DNA of 64,000 nt. It comes from Candidatus Komeilibacteria bacterium (GTDB lineage: Bacteria > Patescibacteriota > Patescibacteriia > UBA1558 > 2-01-FULL-52-15). Positions 17,409-57,637 of this stretch are shown piece by piece; positions within the stretch are counted from its first letter, which is position 1, and the number at the start of each line of letters is the position of its first letter. A model generated the notes under the pieces. It saw only the letters and a list, made by a program, of their open reading frames with translations, was not told the origin of the DNA and did no database searches. The translations under genes were made by a program, and so were the position numbers. The stretch covers positions 1,535 through 65,534 of the forward strand of contig JAZDLR010000016.1 of the NCBI GenBank assembly GCA_043801745.1. Reading direction: 5' to 3'.

Positions 17409-17861
17409 TCAACGTGTCGTGGTATACACGTACTCTGCCAGTACCAACTCACTTGTGCTGGTCTGGAACGGCAAAGTCAGAGAACTGAGATACAGTTTTT
17501 CGTTGAATGATGACGTTTTCGGCCATCCCTCGAGCATTGCCAGATGACGGAAATAGCCCACCTCAACAGCTGCCTCACTGGGGTACTGGCTGATACTCGT
17601 TGAAATGACGCGGTGACGATCGCCCACCTCATTCACTTCAACGGTATAATGGTAGCCGAACTTATCGACTATTTGGTTGTCATAGCGGCTCTTCAGGGAC
17701 TCCACGCCGCCACGTTTGAAGGTCTGTCTGATTTCCGTCTTCACCAGCTGAAAGCTGATCTGGGATTTGACCCAGCCAGGCACTGTCTGCGGCGCTGCCA
17801 GAAAATCAGCCAGCTGAAGAATCGCCAATATGATTAACAGATACCTTGCCCACGGTTTCAT
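17409..17861 (-). CDS. secreted hypothetical protein
   Basis: Signal peptide MKPWARYLLIILAILQLADFLAAPQ. Confidence 0.45.
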   Translation of the reverse strand: MKPWARYLLIILAILQLADFLAAPQTVPGWVKSQISFQLVKTEIRQTFKRGGVESLKSRYDNQIVDKFGYHYTVEVNEVGDRHRVISTSISQYPSEAAVEVGYFRHLAMLEGWPKTSSFNEKLYLSSLTLPFQTSTSELVLAEYVYTTTR

Positions 17862-31980: not shown

Positions 31981-32499
31981 CTAACGATAGATCGGGATTC
32001 GTACTTGGGGCCCTTGGAAAGCATCTCGCCCCTTGTCATAGACCGGTAGACACTTTCGGTAGAGTCTCCTGCTCCCATCGGGGCACTCTATCAGAGCAGT
32101 GATGGGATAGCAGGCAAAGGCCTTGTTCGGCTTGACCCGAATCAGGGTGGGCAATGTCTGCTGCTGGGGACCCAGGCGGAACTTGGGCTCATGTACCCAC
32201 TTGTACTCCACCCAGGAGGTGTCGGCGCCGGATCGGGTCCGGCCGTGATGCGGCCGCTCCTCCTGCAGTTCAAACTCATAGGCCAGGCGGACCGACACCG
32301 AACAGCCACAATCGCGTGCCGGTAAACGCTCACCAGTATCCTGATCAACATCGGTTCTGTTCATGACGTTTACGGTCAACCAGTCAGCCCGGTTTTCCGT
32401 AATGTCGCTGGAACTGTGGATCAGGACACTGGTAGAACAGCCTGTCAGCAGCACCAGAGCCGCAAGACAGAAAAGCACAACTACTGGCCAGGATTTCAT
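31981..32499 (-). CDS. lipoprotein (hypothetical), compositionally foreign (high GC)
   Basis: Lipobox LLTGC; local GC content well above neighbours. Confidence 0.5.
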   Translation of the reverse strand: MKSWPVVVLFCLAALVLLTGCSTSVLIHSSSDITENRADWLTVNVMNRTDVDQDTGERLPARDCGCSVSVRLAYEFELQEERPHHGRTRSGADTSWVEYKWVHEPKFRLGPQQQTLPTLIRVKPNKAFACYPITALIECPDGSRRLYRKCLPVYDKGRDAFQGPQVRIPIYR

Positions 32500-46574: not shown

Positions 46575-46599
46575 ACTATTACTATATCATGGCCCTATT

Positions 46600-47235
46600 G
46601 ACAAATCTATCGGATTATTAAATACTAATGTTCTGTTCCTTGAGTTATTGGATATTCAGAGACCGTGAACTACTGGCGCCTTGCAATCACCACGACCTCT
46701 CACCAGGTCGTGAAGCTGCGCTAGAATTCGCGGTCTCTCCTTTTTGGCCCTAGGTATCCTGCGATTTCTAACCGGGGGGTTAGACTCTTCTAATCCGTAG
46801 AAAGGAGAAACTACACGTAAGGCCGTCAACGAAACACGTTGGCGGGAAATCCACCTTGTTCCGGTGAGGGAACAAAAAACCATGATTTGCACTAGCACCG
46901 AACGTCAGGAAGACTTCCGGCGGAGAACCTGTACCACCAAGGCGCAAGTTAATCCTCCCTGTGTCTATGGATCGCCCCAGCGGGTCAACTGCCACGGTCT
47001 GGTTGCAGGGTTTACTCCTTGTAAATTTTGCGGCCGGGACATGTACACCGGCAAGACCCGTTCTGACATCCTGAAGGGACTGGAAGAAAAACACGCCCTG
47101 ATGACCGCCCGTTCGGCCCCTAACCTAGCCCAGAGCTAGACGTGCAAATCTCTGAAGCCTCAACCTAGACGGCATCTGGCGTTTCAGAGGCAACAAGTTC
47201 GGGCCCGCTCAGTTTTTTGAGCGGGCCCGTTATAT
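46600..47235 (+). other. GC-rich, hairpin-rich non-coding region (candidate structured ncRNA locus; unassigned)
   Basis: GC far above genome background; overlapping ORFs on both strands; long-range stem 46657-46740 followed by T5; strong terminator 47193-47225. Confidence 0.3.
47193..47230 (+). terminator. intrinsic terminator (GGGCCCGCUC-AGUUUUUU-GAGCGGGCCC then U-rich)
   Basis: 10-bp perfect stem. Confidence 0.6.
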
Positions 47236-47254
47236 TTTCACAGCCAAAAAAAGT

Positions 47255-51384: not shown

Positions 51385-51545
51385 GCCCCCGCGAGTAATT
51401 GCGAGGGCCAGGTTGGTGGAACCGGCCGGATTTGCCGCGCCCCGCTGCCTAGCGTCAGCTATGGCGGCCGGGGAACCGACGATCTCCCTGGGGTCAACCA
51501 GAGCGCCTTAAACACTTGGCCACGGTTCCGATATCACGGAAATAA
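51385..51545 (-). other. GC-rich segment co-transcribed downstream of tRNAs, ending in an intrinsic terminator (candidate small ncRNA or processed trailer)
   Basis: Minus-strand terminator CCCUCGC-AAUUACU-CGCGGGGG plus U5 near 51385-51410; about 60% GC, no convincing ORF. Confidence 0.3.
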
Positions 51546-51547
51546 GT

Positions 51548-51652
51548 TGGAGCGGGTGATGGGATTCGAACCCACGACGTCTTCCCGAGGTAAGAGGCAG
51601 ATCACACATACCCCGCCAGAAGAAAGCGCCCTACCTCTGGGCCACACCCGCT
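51548..51652 (-). tRNA. tRNA with ~29-nt insertion in anticodon loop (anticodon CUG/Gln-like if insertion removed at 37/38)
   Basis: Acceptor GCGGGTG/CACCCGC, D-arm GCCC-AGAGGTA-GGGC, T-arm GTGGG-TTCGAAT-CCCAT, CCA encoded; anticodon stem CTTTC/GGAAG interrupted by hairpin GGGGTA...TACCTC. Confidence 0.5.
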
Positions 51653-51666
51653 CTAAAAGAACGAAT

Positions 51667-51743
51667 TGGAGTAGCCAACCGGACTCGAACCGGCAACCTC
51701 CTCACCGAAGGGGTGAGCCGCTCTACCTTTGAGCTATGGCAAC
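51667..51743 (-). tRNA. tRNA-like gene with atypical anticodon loop (CCCUUCG; anticodon unresolved, CUU/UUC-like)
   Basis: Acceptor GTTGCCA/TGGCTAC (one mismatch), D-arm GCTC-AAAGGTA-GAGC, anticodon stem CTCAC/GTGAG, T-arm GCCGG-TTCGAGT-CCGGT, CCA encoded. Confidence 0.45.
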
Positions 51744-51754
51744 ATCTTGTCTTG

Positions 51755-51784
51755 CCGCCCACCGGGCGGTCGCCCTGTGGGCGA
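51755..51784. repeat. double-hairpin repeat element, copy B (CCGCCC-ACC-GGGCGG / TCGCCC-TGT-GGGCGA)
   Basis: Same stems as 38817-38848; sits inside a 40-bp segment flanked by 13-bp direct repeats (51732-51744 and 51785-51797, agctatggcaaca). Confidence 0.7.
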
Positions 51785-52029
51785 AGCTATGGCAACAAAA
51801 AATATCTCTGAAGCCTACCCGCCTATGGTGGGCAGCGACACGAATATAGATATTAATACAACTCAAAATCAGTGTCAATTACTATTACTTGACATTATCT
51901 TAATAATATGATAAAAAATAATGTTCTTTGAAATCATGGGCCTGTTATGGCCTTGTATATATAGAACTCCATACGGAGGTTGCCGACAACGCGTCGGCAT
52001 AGACACAAAACCGCCATGAACCGAGGAGG

Positions 52030-52428
52030 ATGAGTATCGTGGCTAGCAAAACCCTGTATGGAAAGGTGGGGGTGACGCGGCCTAACGAGCCAACACTAAT
52101 AGTGACCACCTTTCGCCTTCACATTGGTGAGGTAGTGAAAAGGCTAGGTCTCTACCCCTCTCCTAACGGGAACGAGTATGTCGTCGACCAACTGCGCGAT
52201 GGCTTGGAGATTAGGATGCCTTCGTCGGCTATTCTTTTTCTCTGCACCATACCAACTCCCTGCGTTATCTATGAGCGTGAGATTTATCTAGGAAAGGATC
52301 ACGGGGAGTCGGGCCCATTCCTCTTGAAAGAGGGCGCACGTTTCATGCGAGGCAACACGAACGACCTCTTCGTGGAAGCTCTTTCATCCTTTTTGCAAGC
52401 TACCACCCCGGACATCAATAACGCTTAG
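52030..52428 (+). CDS. hypothetical protein (high-GC island ORF1; GTG start)
   Basis: GAGGAGG RBS 7 nt upstream; GC about 58-60%. Confidence 0.5.
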   Translation: MSIVASKTLYGKVGVTRPNEPTLIVTTFRLHIGEVVKRLGLYPSPNGNEYVVDQLRDGLEIRMPSSAILFLCTIPTPCVIYEREIYLGKDHGESGPFLLKEGARFMRGNTNDLFVEALSSFLQATTPDINNA

Positions 52429-52477
52429 CGGGCCGAAACCTACCCACCCAAACACAGACATACGACTGGAGGATCTT

Positions 52478-52717
52478 ATGATTTTCGTAGAATTCACCCC
52501 CAAAGAGACTTCTCCCATGAGGCGCAAATACTTTTTCGTCGGCGCCAGTTTGGAGGACGTCCTCGCGGACACAAGCGGTGGTACGGAATTTGGATTCGTC
52601 ACCTTCGCCTCTCACCGCGAGATTTCCGAGGAAGAAGCTCGCAGCCTGAAGCTGGGCTACCTGGACAAGGGCATTCAGGCCGTGAAGAACGGCTGCAAGA
52701 GCTACATGCTGGACTAG
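52478..52717 (+). CDS. hypothetical protein (high-GC island ORF2)
   Basis: GGAGGA RBS; 79 aa acidic protein. Confidence 0.45.
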   Translation: MIFVEFTPKETSPMRRKYFFVGASLEDVLADTSGGTEFGFVTFASHREISEEEARSLKLGYLDKGIQAVKNGCKSYMLD

Positions 52718-52778
52718 GCTTTTAGCGCGCAGACAACTGCGCACACGATCACTAGACCCCCACAGGAGGTAGCAACAC

Positions 52779-53438
52779 ATGAAACGGATCATTCTGATCG
52801 CTCTGCTTGCCTGTCTGTTCGTGATCCCGACGTTCACCACCGTCTGCCTGGCTGCAGATCAGCCGGCAGTCAACACCACCTCCACCGGCCTCACCCCCGA
52901 GGACATCGCGCAGCTGCAGAAGAACGTGACGGCGTTTGCGAAGGTCCTGGGTTTGGCTGACACCACCACCGCCAAGTCCGGGACTCGGCTGTCAATGGCC
53001 GATGTGGCTGACAAGTTCCTGGAGTACTCCAAGGCGGCCATTCTGGCGACTGTCGGTACCATCGAGAAGGTTGCTCCACATGTTTGGGCTGTGTTGGTAC
53101 GACAGCAATACGCCAAAGCTTTCTCTTCGTTGGCAGCCCCAGTCTTCATCTTCATCTTCCTGTTGCTCTTTCGACTGTGGGTCGTGAGGAAGAGGAAGAG
53201 CGTCACTGCGACAGAAAACGACGTACTCGTTGTAGTGAACGGCAACCTCGATCCAGTCGAGATCAAACTGACCGGTTTGGGTCAGTGGGCCAACGTCCTG
53301 GCGCTTCTTGGAATGGTCACTGCAGCCCTGTTCGTGGCAGCACGGATTGCGCCGGCAGTCAGACTCCTGGTCAACCCCGAGTACTATGCGCTCCGCGACC
53401 TCATTCTCCTGCTCCTGAACAAGGGCCAGGGGATGTAG
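52779..53438 (+). CDS. hypothetical membrane/secreted protein (high-GC island ORF3)
   Basis: GGAGG RBS; signal peptide then Thr-rich region and two TM helices. Confidence 0.5.
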   Translation: MKRIILIALLACLFVIPTFTTVCLAADQPAVNTTSTGLTPEDIAQLQKNVTAFAKVLGLADTTTAKSGTRLSMADVADKFLEYSKAAILATVGTIEKVAPHVWAVLVRQQYAKAFSSLAAPVFIFIFLLLFRLWVVRKRKSVTATENDVLVVVNGNLDPVEIKLTGLGQWANVLALLGMVTAALFVAARIAPAVRLLVNPEYYALRDLILLLLNKGQGM

Positions 53439-53468
53439 GTCCTCAACATCCACCACGGACAACAACAA

Positions 53469-53502
53469 ACGCCGGTCGCGCTCTGCGGCCGGCGTCTATT
53501 TT
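53469..53502 (+). terminator. intrinsic terminator closing the high-GC cassette (ACGCCGG ... CCGGCGU plus U-run)
   Basis: GC-rich stem followed by TCTATTTT. Confidence 0.6.
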
Positions 53503-53526: not shown

Positions 53527-54810
53527 CTAATACATTATCCTGGGCGGATAGATATTTATTCCTGATTTAAACAGAACCAAATAGAAAATCAGGAAAACCA
53601 AATACCAGATAAGTTCCGCCACAATGATCGCCAGGAATGATTTCCAGCCGTGCTTTATGGCCACAATAATGGCCAGCCCAAAAACAAAGAAGACATAAAG
53701 CAGGATAACAATAATAAAAGCAATAATACTAAACGCCGTATCACTACTTAAGGAGTAAAAGAAGTTCTGCTTGGTTAGATATTGAAACCCATAGGTGATT
53801 ATAACTACCGCCAAAGCCGATATAAAACCTAAAACTGCGTGCAAGGGATCAACAATACTTAGCGTTTCATTTTTCGACGGCGTTGCTTCAGTTGAAGTTG
53901 AGGCGTTCTTTCTTTTTTTTGATCTACGTGTCAAGAAAAATAACAACAGAAAGATGACAATTATAATACCAATAGTCCAAAGAATGCCGGACAGATAAAG
54001 CCGAAACCAATTGGTAGAATATTCTCCCTTTACAACAAACGATTCATTGGCAGCCAAGTTCTTCGCCTGTTTCATTAGGGCACCATAGGAGCCGATCTGA
54101 CTTACACTGCGGTCTAGTTCGGCGCTGGGAAGTCCGGCTAATTTAGCCGGGGAGGCGGTATCAGAGTTTGATACGGTGCCATAATTGACGTTAGCTTGTT
54201 TTCCTTTGAGCAACAGGTCACTATCAACATCAACACTGACATTTATTGTTTCGATTCTGGCTGGAACTTTAATGGTTTCAAATCTGAATTTCTGTAGTCC
54301 TAAAAAATTTGTCACATAGCCCTTAGCAGCATAAGCAATAACTAGGGCACCGGATTTAGACGGAGCAATTGGGGTGGGGAAAGTTAATTTATAGCTATTT
54401 CCTTCTTTGGTGTATTTTACCTTTTGATAACTACTGGCCTGACTACCACCCTTATAGGCAACATCATAACCAACTCCGGCCGAGTATGCGGCATAATTGG
54501 GATCACCATACTCCAGGCAAGGTTGTGTTGGATTGTTGTAATCCGCCCGCAGACAAGGCCGAGGAAGTTGCTGCTGAATAATAACCATTTCTGACGGGGT
54601 CACACCCGGTATCTCAAAACTAAAATCAGTCATCGGTGTGTCTTGAGAATTGGTAATAGCAATCTTGGCGTAAACAATCGCCTCGCCATTGCCGCGAAAA
54701 ACCACACTATAATAATGACTTTGTCCAAAAAGAAGCTCCGACTGTGCCGACGCTCCGAAAGAAAATAGGATCAATAATAAAGGTATAATTTCTCTGATGA
54801 TTTTTTTCAT
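53527..54810 (-). CDS. hypothetical exported protein with C-terminal multi-TM region
   Basis: Signal peptide; large beta-rich ectodomain; Lys-rich stop-transfer then 3 TM helices. Confidence 0.45.
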   Translation of the reverse strand: MKKIIREIIPLLLILFSFGASAQSELLFGQSHYYSVVFRGNGEAIVYAKIAITNSQDTPMTDFSFEIPGVTPSEMVIIQQQLPRPCLRADYNNPTQPCLEYGDPNYAAYSAGVGYDVAYKGGSQASSYQKVKYTKEGNSYKLTFPTPIAPSKSGALVIAYAAKGYVTNFLGLQKFRFETIKVPARIETINVSVDVDSDLLLKGKQANVNYGTVSNSDTASPAKLAGLPSAELDRSVSQIGSYGALMKQAKNLAANESFVVKGEYSTNWFRLYLSGILWTIGIIIVIFLLLFFLTRRSKKRKNASTSTEATPSKNETLSIVDPLHAVLGFISALAVVIITYGFQYLTKQNFFYSLSSDTAFSIIAFIIVILLYVFFVFGLAIIVAIKHGWKSFLAIIVAELIWYLVFLIFYLVLFKSGINIYPPRIMY

Positions 54811-54884
54811 ATTTTTATAGATTAATGACTAGGTATAGTATAGCAATTCTGAAGATTTTAGTCCCGATCTATCAGAAGAACCCC

Positions 54885-55148
54885 CTATTCAAATTCAATA
54901 ATGTACATTCCTTTTTGTTCCAGCTCCTCTACTGTCCAGTACTTAGTCGGACTATTGTGCTTGGTTACTCCTTTAACAGTCCTAATATATTCCCGTCCGG
55001 TATATTCTTTGGTCTTTGGGTCCCATTCTCTAAACCTAATTTGGTCTCCTTCTTCTAGATCAAAATCGGCCAGCCGAAAATCAACTGGCGACTTCTGATC
55101 TTTATCAAACATCTCTGGCCAAATTTTTTTATCGATAGTTCTCATCAA
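54885..55148 (-). CDS. small ASCH/DUF3850-like protein
   Basis: 87-aa protein with DQIRFREWD ... EYTGREYIRTVKGV pattern typical of DUF3850-like ASCH-fold proteins. Confidence 0.35.
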   Translation of the reverse strand: MMRTIDKKIWPEMFDKDQKSPVDFRLADFDLEEGDQIRFREWDPKTKEYTGREYIRTVKGVTKHNSPTKYWTVEELEQKGMYIIEFE

Positions 55149-55166
55149 AATTAAGCTTGGCCCGTC

Positions 55167-56906
55167 TTACATCTCAAAATAAGATTCCTTAATACCTTGG
55201 GTCATGTCCAGTCCCAGTTTCTGAATAACCGACCTCACCTTATCTTCGTTGGCCCCTTTGTTGGTGGATCTAATTTCAACAAAGCTACCCAAATCAACTT
55301 CTTGACCATCTTCGTTTTTGGACACCCTGTCAGCAGATAATGTAACTCCGTCAAGCTGATATAGTGTTCTCTCCTTGGTAATCGTTTTTTTCTTACTGCC
55401 ATAAATATCCAAAAAGGCTGCTTCTGTTTCGGCGTCAATAGCAAATTCAAATTTGGGCCGCTCTCTAAATTCTGACTCTACTTTAGGTCCTTTATAGGTT
55501 AACATAATCTCCTCTCCCTCTTGCCTAATTCTTAAAATTTCCCCGGTCTTCATTAAATCTCGATCTTTGGGATTATAATAATTATCCACTTGCCTGGTGG
55601 TGCCGAGTTTTTCGCCGCCCAATCTTCTTATTTTATCTTGATCCAAATTACTCTTAAATTTAAGTTGCACTTCGTGTAAACCGGAGCGCTCCGCCTCTAC
55701 TTCAGGGTTGTATTCATTATTAATTATTAAGTCAGCATTTTTTCTGGTGCTTTCTATATATTTGTCATGCATCGGTTCGACAACTTGGGAAAAATATTTA
55801 AGAATATCCGCTGGTTTCTGTCCGGTTCTCTCAACGTCTCTCAATAAACGCCTGACAATCCGTCCGTGAGTGCCGATATCAATGAAGGCTTTAACGTCGC
55901 CAACGTCTTTTACTGTGTCATCTAAAACAAACAGGCCTTCAGCAATAATTATTTTCTTAGGCTTAACGGTTTCTGTGCCGGTTACTTCAGCCGTTTTAAA
56001 ATCGTAGCTTGGTTTGGCAATTTCTTGGCCGCGTTTAAGTTGTTCCAGATGTTCGCGAAACAACGGTAGATTGATAGCCTCTGGTTGGTCCCAGTTTAAT
56101 ACGTTTCCTTTCTTGGCCTCAGCTATCATAAATGGCTTACCGCGGTAATAATCATCAGCGGAAAGTATCATGGCCTCTTCACCGAAAATTCTTTTTATGG
56201 TATCAGCTATGGCGCTGGTTTTACCCGAAGCTGATCCACCAGCTATTTCAACAACTACATTTCCCTCGCTTTGGGCCTCCCTCTCCTTAATAAGCTCAAC
56301 CAGTCTGACCAGGCCCTCTTCTTTGTTAAATTCAGGAATCTCCAACCTTTCTTTGGCTGGTCCCTGGGTCTGGTCCTTAATTTTTGGTCTTCCCTGAACG
56401 GCCAAGTTTTGGTTCTTATATCTTTTGTCATTAGAAACATCTGAACCAAGCCAATCGGGCGGAACAAACTTATCACACTCTTCTAGGGTAGCGAACTCTT
56501 TTTCAACCGTTATTAGTCCGGTAAGATCTCCGCCGTAAATATCCAATTCTAAAACTCCCCCCTCGTGAGGTATATAATAACGTGTTTTTATGATTCTCTT
56601 ACCTTCGGTCGCTGACCAGAAAGTCTCGAATTGTTCTTGATTAATTTCGGTTTCTGCCTCGTGTCTTGTTTTTCCGACGCCACTCTTTACTGTTTGAAAA
56701 TATTTCTCTCCTTTTTTCCTCAACCTAACCTCCGTACCATCTTCAGTTATAGCTAAATAGCCCTGAGCGATCTCCTCGTGGGGATATTGCTCCAAATTTT
56801 CTGGTAATTTCTTAATTAAAAATTTCCTCTCAATTTCTAGCGGTTGAGTTTCTTTCTCTTCCTTTCTATCGCCCGGTATTACGCCTTCAATTTTAGGATC
56901 ACTCAT
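55167..56906 (-). CDS. CYTH-domain / uridine-kinase-family (P-loop) fusion protein
   Basis: N-terminal CYTH signature EIERKFLI, central Walker A VVEIAGGSASGKTS with Udk/PRK-like fold cues, second CYTH-like region C-terminal. Confidence 0.55.
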   Translation of the reverse strand: MSDPKIEGVIPGDRKEEKETQPLEIERKFLIKKLPENLEQYPHEEIAQGYLAITEDGTEVRLRKKGEKYFQTVKSGVGKTRHEAETEINQEQFETFWSATEGKRIIKTRYYIPHEGGVLELDIYGGDLTGLITVEKEFATLEECDKFVPPDWLGSDVSNDKRYKNQNLAVQGRPKIKDQTQGPAKERLEIPEFNKEEGLVRLVELIKEREAQSEGNVVVEIAGGSASGKTSAIADTIKRIFGEEAMILSADDYYRGKPFMIAEAKKGNVLNWDQPEAINLPLFREHLEQLKRGQEIAKPSYDFKTAEVTGTETVKPKKIIIAEGLFVLDDTVKDVGDVKAFIDIGTHGRIVRRLLRDVERTGQKPADILKYFSQVVEPMHDKYIESTRKNADLIINNEYNPEVEAERSGLHEVQLKFKSNLDQDKIRRLGGEKLGTTRQVDNYYNPKDRDLMKTGEILRIRQEGEEIMLTYKGPKVESEFRERPKFEFAIDAETEAAFLDIYGSKKKTITKERTLYQLDGVTLSADRVSKNEDGQEVDLGSFVEIRSTNKGANEDKVRSVIQKLGLDMTQGIKESYFEM

Positions 56907-56939
56907 TTTATTTTATTATTTATTCTTATAATGACCGAG

Positions 56940-57290
56940 TTAACTCGTCTCTTTTTCTACCACCAATTTAAGTTTTTCGTTCACCTCTGTGTCTCGCGGC
57001 ATATTCCTGTTTTCAACCTCTAATTGACCCCAAACATTTATATTAATGGCATATATACCAGACCTTGGTCTTAACTCTCGCCTTTTTCCTAAACTCTCCC
57101 GACATACCTCCGGCGATAGACCCTCTCCTTGTGTGCTTAGGGCATCGTATAGCCTTATTCCTAGCTCTATTAATTCCTCTTTTTTACCGGAAATTACATA
57201 CGTAGCTCTACGGGCATCAAACTCAACAGTTAGCGGTTTAACTTCATTCAACTCTTGGCCCGGCCCAACACTATTATCCTCTGTTATCAT
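56940..57290 (-). CDS. hypothetical protein
   Basis: ORF only. Confidence 0.35.
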   Translation of the reverse strand: MITEDNSVGPGQELNEVKPLTVEFDARRATYVISGKKEELIELGIRLYDALSTQGEGLSPEVCRESLGKRRELRPRSGIYAININVWGQLEVENRNMPRDTEVNEKLKLVVEKETS

Positions 57291-57334
57291 GCAAATTTAT
57301 TAAACTATTATTATTACCCAAACACTCCGGCAAT

Positions 57335-57637
57335 TTATTTAGATTCTTTACTGAATAATTCCAATACCGCGTTAGCATCGGCTCCGATTTGTCTTTCTTG
57401 TTCTTCAGTAAAATAACTGGTGGCACCATGTTGTTTCAAGGCTTGCCTTATAGCGGCCTTGGCTTTCAGCTGATTAATCAGTTGCGCCGCAGCGATTGAA
57501 AATTTAGGATCAGCCTCAAGGGCTAAGGCTGCTTCCTGTAAAACAACATCCCGATCAATACTAATCTCTTGGAAATCAGCTCCGGTAAAAACATAGTTTC
57601 TGCCTTCTGTTTTTAAGGGTAATTCGTCAAACCTCAT
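57335..57637 (-). CDS. hypothetical protein
   Basis: ORF only; immediately downstream of dnaN. Confidence 0.35.
   Translation of the reverse strand: MRFDELPLKTEGRNYVFTGADFQEISIDRDVVLQEAALALEADPKFSIAAAQLINQLKAKAAIRQALKQHGATSYFTEEQERQIGADANAVLELFSKESK

What the first reader, a model, noticed from the sequence alone, without database searches (positions are those of the whole stretch)
51746..53502. High-GC (~58-60%) three-gene cassette embedded in a ~41% GC genome beside tRNA genes
Three plus-strand ORFs, each with a canonical GGAGG-type RBS, lie in a segment whose GC content and codon usage are unlike the rest of the window. They are a 132-aa protein with a GTG start, a 79-aa acidic protein, and a 219-aa signal-peptide/2-TM protein with a Thr-rich linker. 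The minus strand of this segment shows the long spurious ORFs typical of high-GC DNA. The cassette lies directly beside two minus-strand tRNA genes and the 13-bp-duplicated hairpin element, is closed by a GC-rich intrinsic terminator (53469-53502), and is followed by AT-rich host DNA. The pattern indicates recent horizontal acquisition from a high-GC donor. None of the three proteins has a motif I recognise, so this is a candidate novel small system (toxin/immunity, anti-phage or phage-derived module).
Basis: partly seen in the sequence, partly recalled or inferred. Interest (0 to 1): 0.8.

Follow-up and report, generated by a model that had tools for sequence, protein, structure and literature searches.

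The report
GC-rich operon around resident membrane gene
The GC-rich three-gene stretch is real, but it is a mixed operon built around a resident membrane-protein gene whose family is unusually GC-rich in many low-GC candidate-phyla-radiation (CPR) genomes. It is not a three-gene system freshly imported from a high-GC donor.

Summary
The compositional anomaly is real but overstated. 52030-53502 is 55.5% GC in a 43.9% GC window, and it is the strongest GC and dinucleotide outlier there. Third-codon-position GC (GC3) is 0.74 for ORF2 and ORF3, against a window mean of 0.46.

The trio is not a conserved system.
- **ORF3** (signal peptide plus two-helix hairpin) belongs to a family of about 300 clusters that matches PHROG 1486. 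Its closest relative lies at the same locus (PBP1A, two tRNAs, ORF3, then dnaN-dnaA) in a related genome, without ORF1 or ORF2 and at near-host GC.
- **ORF2** belongs to a separate small family that occurs alone elsewhere.
- **ORF1** is an orphan.

None of about 60 other ORF3-family loci carries an ORF1 or ORF2 homologue.

The new result concerns composition. In low-GC hosts, ORF3-family genes exceed their neighbours' GC3 in 19 of 21 loci, by up to 0.89 versus 0.39. The excess is confined to the gene and scattered across the family tree. ORF2 homologues behave the same way. High GC is therefore a recurrent trait of these gene families, not the mark of one import from an actinobacterial or phage donor.

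I found no integrase, no flanking att repeats, no defence or toxin-antitoxin match and no viral context. Function remains unknown. The cause of the GC excess is unresolved; I favour selection on the coding sequence or mRNA, with repeated allele replacement as the main rival.

The parts
51889..51917 (+). Putative promoter of the cassette: TTGACA at 51889-51894, a 17-nt spacer, then TAAAAA. It lies in the AT-rich divergent promoter region.
   Evidence: Read from the sequence. The consensus scan did not list it, because the -10 hexamer matches only 4 of 6. It is inferred from position: L001 has TTGACA-17-TAATTT 87 nt upstream of its ORF3 homologue. Weak evidence.
51915..52029 (+). 5' leader with hairpins. 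The ORF1 ribosome-binding site and start are partly sequestered.
   Evidence: Fold z-score -2.64; 3 of 200 shuffles fold as well.
52030..52428 (+). ORF1: 132 aa from the ATG, or 129 aa from the GTG at 52039, which has better spacing to AGGAGG. Orphan, soluble, probable but unproven gene.
   Evidence: ORF listed. Codon-position GC periodicity p=0.009, and a stop-free run this long arises in 4% of shuffles. No homologue in any search. Its own sequence is not in the protein collection, so the source annotation apparently did not call it.
52478..52717 (+). ORF2: 79-aa mildly acidic soluble protein. It belongs to a small family found as a stand-alone gene in other low-GC contigs.
   Evidence: Homologues P0004-P0006 at 57-58% identity. 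Their contexts are L003 (between hrcA and Band_7/YidC) and L004 (beside tRNAs). The substitution pattern is that of a coding gene. The homologues are also GC-rich: 59% versus 42.5%, and 51% versus 42%.
52779..53438 (+). ORF3: 219-aa exported membrane protein with a signal peptide, an extracytoplasmic helical region of about 90 aa, a two-helix hairpin and a conserved C-terminal helix. It is the resident member of a large family related to PHROG 1486.
   Evidence: phrog_1486 at E 4.7e-12, and all 70 aligned relatives hit it. 298 cluster representatives. Syntenic orthologue in L001. Hydropathy. AlphaFold2 model with mean confidence (pLDDT) 77.5. Coding substitution pattern.
53469..53502 (+). Intrinsic terminator that closes the unit.
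   Evidence: 12-pair stem with 9 G-C pairs, followed by a T-rich tail.
51667..51743 (-). Neighbouring tRNA-Lys(CTT). Context only, not part of the operon.
   Evidence: ARAGORN and Rfam. The locus is shared with L001.
51551..51651 (-). Neighbouring tRNA-Gln(CTG) with a 29-nt insertion at position 37/38. Context only.
   Evidence: Rfam tRNA model at 51.7 bits. ARAGORN with introns allowed. The L001 orthologue lacks the insertion.

Best explanation
**What it is.**
- The segment is one real transcription unit: a leader, three ORFs each with a Shine-Dalgarno sequence, and an intrinsic terminator.
- It sits in a variable stretch between PBP1A plus a tRNA cluster on one side and dnaN-dnaA on the other, in a Candidatus Komeilibacteria (CPR) genome.
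- It is a composite, not a co-inherited system.

**The three genes.**
- ORF3 is the resident gene of the locus. It belongs to a widespread family of membrane proteins of about 210 aa, distantly related to the PHROG 1486 'membrane protein' of Bacillus Herelleviridae phages.
- ORF2 belongs to a separate small family that occurs alone elsewhere.
- ORF1 is an orphan.
- ORF1 and ORF2 lie between ORF3 and the position of its ancestral promoter. They were either inserted here or lost in the relative.

**Why it is GC-rich.** The high GC is mainly at third codon positions. It is a recurrent, gene-confined property of the ORF3 and ORF2 families in low-GC hosts.
- It therefore reflects a force acting on these genes themselves, not a single import from a high-GC donor.
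- I favour selection on the coding sequence or mRNA for G/C-ending codons, for example for transcript abundance or stability. I put this cause at about 0.35.

**Inferred mechanism of the protein (not shown).**
- ORF3 is exported and its signal peptide is cleaved.
- It is anchored by a helical hairpin with both ends outside and the RKRK loop inside.
- Two conserved juxtamembrane helices, VW..QQYAKA before the first helix and NPEYYA.RDL after the second, face the outer side of the membrane.
- It most likely acts as an abundant envelope or membrane-surface protein.
For: **Synteny.** Lit, TyrRS, PBP1A, two minus-strand tRNAs, ORF3, then dnaN, dnaA, rnpA, yidC lie in the same order in the window and in L001. 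The tRNAs and ORF3 align, but ORF1 and ORF2 have no counterpart.

**Divergence.** Flanking orthologues are 70-92% identical, whereas ORF3 is 51%. Four-fold sites in the flanking genes differ at 54-67%, close to saturation. A signature from a transfer older than the split should therefore have decayed.

**Family.**
- 298 representatives at E<=1e-3. Named members are Magasanikbacteria and Paceibacterota.
- All 70 aligned members hit phrog_1486.
- The phage homologue Bcp1_003 shares the NPEYYAL motif.

**Other contexts.**
- Elsewhere the gene is stand-alone among housekeeping genes.
- It usually has its own near-consensus promoter: 9 of 20 low-GC loci score >=10 of 12, against 10% of background ORFs.
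- No ORF1 or ORF2 homologue occurs in about 60 family loci.

**GC.**
- The gene's GC3 exceeds the mean of flanking ORFs in 19 of 21 low-GC loci (sign test p=2e-4). The largest excess is 0.89 versus 0.39 in L020. There is no excess in hosts of 54-68% GC.
- The excess is confined to the gene.
- Ribosomal-protein, EF-Ts and NusG genes beside the extreme case have GC3 of 0.32-0.42.
- GC-rich copies are scattered across the tree and group with copies from low-GC hosts.
- ORF2 homologues are 59% versus 42.5% and 51% versus 42% GC.

**Coding status.** ORF2 and ORF3 show third-position-dominated substitutions.
Against: - The cause of the GC excess was not demonstrated.
- Promoter strength does not track GC3: L031 has a near-perfect promoter but GC3 of 0.39.
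- GC1 and GC2 are also somewhat raised in the window's ORF3 (0.60/0.40, against 0.54/0.34 in L001). That fits a general GC pressure or a GC-richer source as well as it fits codon selection.
- ORF3 at 51% identity against about 80% for its neighbours could mean allele replacement rather than fast evolution.
- The dinucleotide signature is strongly atypical.
- The cassette's own promoter is weak by consensus.
- Only one close relative genome was available.
- The ORF2 family has only four known members, because only the word-indexed search was run on it.
- ORF1's status as a gene rests on modest statistics.
- No functional evidence exists for any of the three proteins. Fold searches with the ORF3 model gave only generic helical matches.
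Confidence: 0.6

Rival explanations
1. Allele replacement or a moron-like unit. After the split from the L001 lineage, the resident ORF3 was replaced by a divergent, GC-richer allele that brought ORF1 and ORF2 with it. The source would be a GC-richer Patescibacteria relative or one of its mobile elements, and the exchange would be by recombination in this variable interval. On this view, ORF3-family genes in general behave as single-gene promoter-gene-terminator units that are exchanged repeatedly.
For: - ORF3 is 51% identical against 70-92% for flanking genes.
- The interval between PBP1A and dnaN differs in gene content between the two genomes.
- The dinucleotide signature is atypical.
- GC1 and GC2 are raised as well as GC3.
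- Family members are self-contained units with their own promoter and terminator and sharp compositional borders.
- The PHROG category for the related phage family is 'moron, auxiliary metabolic gene and host takeover'.
- Sister genes differ strongly in GC3: 0.63 versus 0.38, and 0.74 versus 0.53.
Against: - No donor was found. The nearest relative in 1.84 billion representatives is still the syntenic L001 gene.
- No viral contig carries any of the three genes.
- The tree does not place GC-rich copies from low-GC hosts with copies from high-GC hosts.
- The phage homologues are not GC-enriched: 37.7% versus 36.7%.
- There are no recombinase genes or flanking repeats.
Confidence: 0.25
2. The whole three-gene cassette is a recent horizontal acquisition from a high-GC donor (actinobacterial or phage), inserted beside tRNA genes, and it encodes a novel toxin/immunity or anti-phage system.
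For: - It is the strongest compositional outlier in the window.
- It is adjacent to tRNA genes.
- ORF1 and ORF2 are absent from the relative.
- None of the three proteins has a known domain.
Against: - An ORF3 orthologue lies at the same locus in L001.
- The trio does not co-occur in about 60 family loci.
- ORF2 homologues are solitary.
- The GC excess is family-wide.
- There is no integrase and no att-type flanking repeat.
- No tRNA lies within 500 bp of the gene in 25 other loci.
- PADLOC, Pfam and NCBIfam gave no match.
- The phage, plasmid and viral-contig collections gave no match to ORF1 or ORF2.
Confidence: 0.08
3. Assembly chimera. The GC-rich piece comes from another organism in the metagenome and was joined in by the assembler.
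For: Sharp compositional borders at about 51.97 kb and 53.50 kb. Read data were not available.
Against: - Both flanks are syntenic with L001, and L001 also has an ORF3 homologue directly after the same two tRNA genes.
- A chimera would need two precise breakpoints inside a contig reported as 156,579 bp.
- Equally sharp gene-confined GC peaks occur at ORF3-family genes in many independent assemblies.
Confidence: 0.03
4. The GC-rich tract is a structured non-coding RNA, as GC-rich islands in AT-rich genomes often are, and the ORFs are spurious.
For: High GC in a low-GC genome. The leader is somewhat structured (z -2.64).
Against: - ORF2 and ORF3 show coding-type substitution patterns, with many synonymous changes against their homologues.
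- The ORF2 region folds no better than shuffles (z -1.0).
- There is no Rfam match.
- The family is conserved at the protein level.
Confidence: 0.02

Closest known systems
PHROG 1486 'membrane protein' of Bacillus Herelleviridae (Bastillevirinae) phages, for example Bcp1_003 and BM15 gp241
   Same: - There is significant profile similarity: E 4.7e-12 for ORF3 and down to 1.7e-19 for relatives.
- Both have the same core: a pre-membrane helix, a two-helix hairpin and the NPEYYA(L/I).D C-terminal motif.
- Neither has an assigned function.
   Different: - The phage proteins are about 125-145 aa and lack the signal peptide and the N-terminal linker and helix.
- They sit among small genes near a genome end.
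- They are not GC-enriched relative to their genome.
- The window's gene is chromosomal, in a CPR bacterium, and no viral contig carries it.
Phage 'morons': independent promoter-gene-terminator units whose composition differs from their neighbours (concept recalled from the lambdoid-phage literature, own knowledge)
   Same: ORF3-family genes are self-contained units with their own promoter and terminator and a sharply different base composition.
   Different: - They are not inside prophages.
- The window's copy is syntenic with that of a diverged relative.
- In the window, the unit holds three genes.
tRNA-linked genomic islands
   Same: A compositionally atypical block lies next to tRNA genes and contains accessory genes absent from a relative.
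   Different: - There is no integrase.
- The only tRNA-derived repeat copies the 5' end and lies 40 bp away, not at the far border.
- The tRNA-proximal anchor gene ORF3 is itself conserved at the locus.
Gene-level selection for higher G+C in bacterial genes. GC-rich versions were reported to give higher transcript levels (Raghavan, Kelkar and Ochman 2012; recalled from memory, not checked here).
   Same: GC3 excess is confined to particular genes, cuts across nearly all codon families, and often comes with strong promoters.
   Different: - The magnitude is extreme, up to +0.5 in GC3.
- It is not shared by ribosomal-protein or EF-Ts genes next door.
- No expression data are available.

Membership tests
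ORF3 family / PHROG 1486-related membrane proteins | Significant profile match to phrog_1486 | tested here: met
   E 4.7e-12 over residues 75-209, covering 2-124 of the 130 profile positions. All 70 aligned relatives match.
ORF3 family / PHROG 1486-related membrane proteins | Two-helix membrane hairpin flanked by the conserved motifs (K)VAP.VW..(I/V).QQYAKA and NPE(Y/F)YA..D | tested here: met
   Invariant columns P100, Q110, Y111, N199, P200, Y203 and A204 in the 70-sequence alignment. Hydrophobic segments centred on residues 120-129 and 178-189. Model helices.
ORF3 family / PHROG 1486-related membrane proteins | Carried by a phage genome | tested here: not met
   No match in phage records for ORF3 or in viral contigs. 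Relatives lie among housekeeping genes.
tRNA-targeted integrative genomic island | Integrase or recombinase gene in or beside the block | tested here: not met
   Only the three ORFs lie in the block. Neither they nor the neighbours tested have an integrase domain.
tRNA-targeted integrative genomic island | Direct repeat of the tRNA end at the distal border (attL/attR) | tested here: not met
   The 13-nt repeat copies the tRNA 5' end, and its two copies start 53 bp apart at 51732 and 51785 (about 40 bp between them), both upstream of the cassette. The 12-nt AT-rich pair at 51846 and 53548 matches 11 of 12; by my estimate about one such pair is expected by chance.
tRNA-targeted integrative genomic island | Block absent from the same site in related genomes | tested here: inconclusive
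   ORF1 and ORF2 are absent in L001, but ORF3 is present at the same site. Only one relative was available.
Horizontal transfer from a high-GC donor | Closest relatives or tree neighbours come from high-GC genomes | tested here: not met
   The closest relative is the syntenic gene of 45% GC genome L001. In the neighbour-joining tree, copies from high-GC hosts form separate groups.
Anti-phage defence or toxin-antitoxin module | Match to a known defence or toxin-antitoxin protein model | tested here: not met
   PADLOC: nothing below E 0.04. Pfam and NCBIfam: no hits.
Anti-phage defence or toxin-antitoxin module | Conserved co-occurrence of the component genes | tested here: not met
   tblastn with ORF1 and ORF2 against all fetched loci finds only the solitary ORF2 homologues. 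Their contexts are shown.
RRM (RNA recognition motif) proteins, considered for ORF2 | Profile-level similarity over the whole beta-alpha-beta-beta-alpha-beta domain | tested here: not met
   Only weak PDB hits to Musashi and nucleolin RRMs (E 0.4-1.4), centred on an RNP1-like EFGFVTF motif. No Pfam RRM hit even at E<=10.
Structured non-coding RNA | Rfam match or a fold more stable than shuffles, with no coding signature | tested here: not met
   No Rfam hit in the cassette. ORF2 region z -1.0. Coding substitution pattern.

The most novel reading that the evidence does not exclude
A gene-specific force holds a few small CPR genes far above genomic GC. The ORF3-type hairpin membrane protein and the ORF2-type 80-aa protein reach GC3 up to 0.89 in 40% GC genomes. 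The excess is confined to the gene and recurs in many lineages. This would be an unusually clean natural case of selection (or a recombination-linked bias) on base composition at the level of single genes. It might mark a very abundant, still uncharacterised envelope protein shared by much of the Patescibacteria. The window's ORF1-ORF2-ORF3 operon would then be a lineage-specific elaboration of that gene.
Probability: 0.3. Interest if true: 0.6.

Novelty: new member of a known kind. Interest (0 to 1): 0.33.

Why it matters
As a candidate imported three-gene system the finding does not hold up, so it should not be ranked as a new defence or toxin module. Two things remain of modest value.

1. 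An unannotated family of about 300 clusters of exported two-helix membrane proteins has no Pfam or NCBIfam model. It is apparently common in CPR bacteria and distantly related to a Bacillus-phage membrane protein.
2. This family, and the separate ORF2 family, are repeatedly and sharply GC3-enriched in low-GC genomes. Ordinary amelioration after transfer and general translational selection do not explain this.

The pattern also warns against reading isolated GC-rich genes in CPR genomes assembled from metagenomes as recent transfers or chimeras.

Tried and rejected
- **Domain and family searches.** Pfam, PHROGs, NCBIfam and PADLOC on the three proteins gave only phrog_1486 for ORF3.
- **Solved structures, by sequence.** Nothing for ORF1 or ORF3. 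ORF2 gave weak RRM hits, which a profile-profile comparison did not confirm.
- **ORF1 homologues.** None in the word-indexed protein search, viral contigs, metagenome contigs, phage records or plasmid records.
- **ORF2 and ORF3 in viral collections.** None in viral contigs. ORF3 and ORF2 had no match in phage records.
- **Neighbours of ORF3 homologues.** The GC-rich neighbours in L007, L010 and L012 have no similarity to ORF1, ORF2 or each other.
- **Flanking direct repeats.** The only pair bracketing the cassette is an AT-rich 12-mer matching 11 of 12, about what chance gives.
- **General translational selection.** Rejected, because ribosomal-protein, EF-Ts and NusG genes next to the most extreme family member have ordinary GC3.
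- **Regional biased gene conversion.** Disfavoured, because the GC peak stops at the gene borders.
- **Literature.** Searches for phrog_1486, for Patescibacteria with GC3, and for CPR codon usage found nothing relevant.
Full report
**1. Observation**

The window averages 43.9% GC. Its source is a Candidatus Komeilibacteria genome assembled from a metagenome, according to the source names of the identical proteins.

Three plus-strand ORFs lie at 52030-52428 (132 aa), 52478-52717 (79 aa) and 52779-53438 (219 aa). Each is preceded by a GGAGG-type site. For ORF1 the ATG abuts the AGGAGG, so the GTG at 52039, with 9-nt spacing and giving 129 aa, is the likelier start.

A 12-pair hairpin followed by a T-run at 53469-53502 closes the unit.

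GC is 51.4% for ORF1, 54.6% for ORF2 and 57.7% for ORF3. The anomaly is therefore about 12 points, not 17-19. It is still the strongest outlier of 251 sliding windows, both for GC (+4 sd) and for dinucleotide signature (197 versus 67 +/- 24).

The excess sits mostly at third codon positions. GC3 is 0.59, 0.74 and 0.74, against 0.46 +/- 0.08 for window ORFs. It spreads over nearly all codon families, with both C- and G-ending codons enriched.

The other details also check out:
- The long minus-strand ORFs exist.
- Two minus-strand tRNA genes lie upstream.
- The exact 13-nt duplication is present.

**2. Are the ORFs genes?**

ORF2 and ORF3 are. Against their homologues, differences concentrate at third positions: 20/21/46 for ORF2 and 89/56/124 for ORF3 at positions 1, 2 and 3. 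There are many synonymous codon changes. The ORF2 region folds no better than shuffled sequence (z -1.0), and there is no Rfam match.

ORF1 is a probable gene only. Its codon-position GC periodicity has p=0.009, and an open frame of this length appears in 4% of shuffles. It has no homologue anywhere, and even its own sequence is absent from the protein collection. The source annotation therefore apparently did not call it.

**3. ORF3 is resident, not imported**

Its only close relative (51% identity, P0002) lies in genome L001. The gene order there is the same: Lit, TyrRS, PBP1A, two minus-strand tRNAs, the ORF3 homologue, then dnaN, dnaA, rnpA, yidC. The tRNAs and ORF3 align, whereas ORF1 and ORF2 have no counterpart.

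In L001 the gene is near host composition: 47% versus 45% GC, with GC3 of 0.53.

An exhaustive profile search of 1.84 billion representatives found no closer relative. Any source of the window's allele is therefore Komeilibacteria-like, not actinobacterial or phage.

Flanking orthologues are 70-92% identical, and their four-fold sites differ at 54-67%, which is near saturation. A compositional signature older than the split should therefore have decayed. Either the GC3 of the window's ORF3 is actively maintained, or the allele was replaced later.

**4. The trio is not a system**

The profile search gave 298 family representatives, mostly 200-220 aa. Named members are Magasanikbacteria and Paceibacterota. 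All 70 aligned members match phrog_1486 and no Pfam family.

In other genomes the gene stands alone among housekeeping genes. It usually has its own near-consensus promoter 60-175 nt upstream: 9 of 20 low-GC loci score >=10 of 12, against 10% of background ORFs. L020 has a perfect TTGACA-17-TATAAT.

Further points against a conserved system or island:
- None of about 60 fetched family loci holds an ORF1 or ORF2 homologue.
- The neighbours of ORF3 homologues are unrelated to one another.
- ORF2's three homologues (57-58% identity) are solitary genes in other low-GC contigs.
- No tRNA lies within 500 bp of the gene in 25 other loci.
- There is no integrase and no defence model match.

**5. The GC excess is a family trait**

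Across loci with enough flanking sequence, the ORF3-family gene exceeds the mean GC3 of flanking ORFs in 19 of 21 low-GC hosts (sign test p=2e-4).
- The excesses reach +0.51, with 63.5% GC and GC3 of 0.89 in a 40% GC Magasanikbacteria genome.
- Hosts of 54-68% GC show no excess.

The peak is confined to the gene. Next to the extreme case, EF-Ts, NusG, L31 and L25 have GC3 of 0.32-0.42, so general translational selection does not explain it.

In a neighbour-joining tree, GC-rich copies from low-GC hosts are scattered. They group with other low-GC-host copies rather than with high-GC-host copies, and sister genes differ widely: 0.74 versus 0.53, and 0.63 versus 0.38.

ORF2 homologues show the same behaviour: 59% versus 42.5%, and 51% versus 42%. 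Phage homologues do not: 37.7% versus 36.7%.

**6. What ORF3 looks like**

Hydropathy and the 70-sequence AlphaFold2 model (pLDDT 77.5) agree on the layout:
- a signal peptide;
- a Thr/Ser-rich linker;
- an amphipathic helix at residues 40-56;
- a long helix at 73-139 that ends in the first transmembrane segment;
- an RKRK-led loop;
- the second transmembrane segment;
- a conserved C-terminal helix.

Invariant residues cluster just outside the membrane on both sides of the hairpin: P100, Q110, Y111, N199, P200, Y203 and A204. By the positive-inside rule, both ends face outward.

The phage homologues contain only this core. Fold searches were uninformative. Function is therefore inferred only. 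I take it to be an exported envelope or membrane-surface protein that is probably well expressed.

**7. Best explanation and rivals**

I rate a composite operon around a resident gene, with family-intrinsic GC richness, at 0.6. Within it, I favour selection on the coding sequence or mRNA as the cause (about 0.35), but this is unproven, because promoter strength does not track GC3.

- **Later allele replacement or moron-like exchange** is the main rival (0.25). It is supported by the 51% versus 80% identity gap, the variable interval, and raised GC1 and GC2.
- **Assembly chimera** rates 0.03. Both flanks are syntenic with L001, and the same gene-confined GC peaks occur in many independent assemblies.
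- **Non-coding RNA** rates 0.02.

**8. Verdict**

ORF3 is a new member of an uncharacterised family that already has a PHROG entry, ORF2 belongs to a small uncharacterised family, and ORF1 is an orphan. The recurrent gene-confined GC3 excess is worth recording, and I found no prior report of it. Its cause and the function of the proteins remain open.

Noticed in passing
window 51551-51651 (-): This tRNA scores 51.7 bits with the Rfam tRNA model. ARAGORN calls it only when introns are allowed: tRNA-Gln(CTG) with a 29-nt insertion at the canonical 37/38 position. The L001 orthologue lacks the insertion, and ARAGORN reads it as 'tRNA-???' with a two-base anticodon (gt), i.e. a shortened loop. A short intron at this position would be unusual for a bacterial tRNA.
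   Followed up: partly
window 51667-51743 (-) and 51744-51797: By my manual parse, tRNA-Lys(CTT) has the anticodon loop CCCUUCG, so C at positions 33 and 37, and one acceptor-stem mismatch (U-U). Its first 13 nt are duplicated exactly, with about 40 nt between the copies, in the leader upstream. Two GC-rich hairpins lie between the copies. A minus-strand promoter (TTGACA-17-TAATAT, 51878-51850) precedes the whole tRNA unit.
   Followed up: partly
window 51414-51529 (-): A GC-rich 116-nt segment lies between tRNA-Gln and a minus-strand terminator (51409-51384). It starts GGAACCG and ends CGGUUCC-ACCA, which resembles an acceptor stem with an encoded CCA. Neither ARAGORN nor Rfam calls it a tRNA. 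Its fold is no more stable than shuffles (z -0.2).
   Followed up: partly
window 46575-47254 (+): The interval between the Lit and TyrRS genes is GC-rich (52-56%). Its promoter box (CCCTATTGACAA...) is conserved with L001, and it ends in a strong terminator hairpin. It has no convincing conserved ORF and no Rfam match at E<=1. It may be an unclassified non-coding RNA or a fast-evolving small gene. L001 has a 108-aa gene called at the equivalent place.
   Followed up: partly
window 31981-32499 (-) and 17409-17861 (-): Two more small exported hypothetical proteins have raised GC3 and no Pfam match. One is a 172-aa lipoprotein-like protein (GC 56.8%, GC3 0.65). The other is a 150-aa protein with a signal peptide (GC3 0.61). 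They may show the same gene-specific GC excess as ORF2 and ORF3.
   Followed up: no
window 53527-57637 versus L001 7722-11781: The interval between PBP1A and dnaN is variable between the two related genomes. The window has a 427-aa membrane protein, a DUF3850 protein, a PRK-CYTH fusion and two small ORFs. L001 has an ABC transporter and an unrelated 334-aa protein. This is a flexible region a few kb from dnaA.
   Followed up: partly
L007/L020 5278-5703 (-): In the Magasanikbacteria locus, a divergently transcribed 141-aa basic protein next to the ORF3 homologue is also GC-rich: 59% GC and GC3 of 0.68 in a 40% GC genome. It is unrelated in sequence to ORF1 or ORF2.
   Followed up: partly
L011 6872-9393: In one locus, the ORF3 homologue is followed by a 207-aa protein, a PrgI-family (PF12666) membrane protein and a FecR-domain protein. 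No VirB4-like gene is visible in the stretch shown. This arrangement was seen only once.
   Followed up: no
L001/L006 (CAZIOU010000004.1): The public record is titled 'uncultured Gammaproteobacteria bacterium'. Its gene order and 70-92% protein identity to the Komeilibacteria window suggest it is a close relative and that the label is wrong.
   Followed up: no
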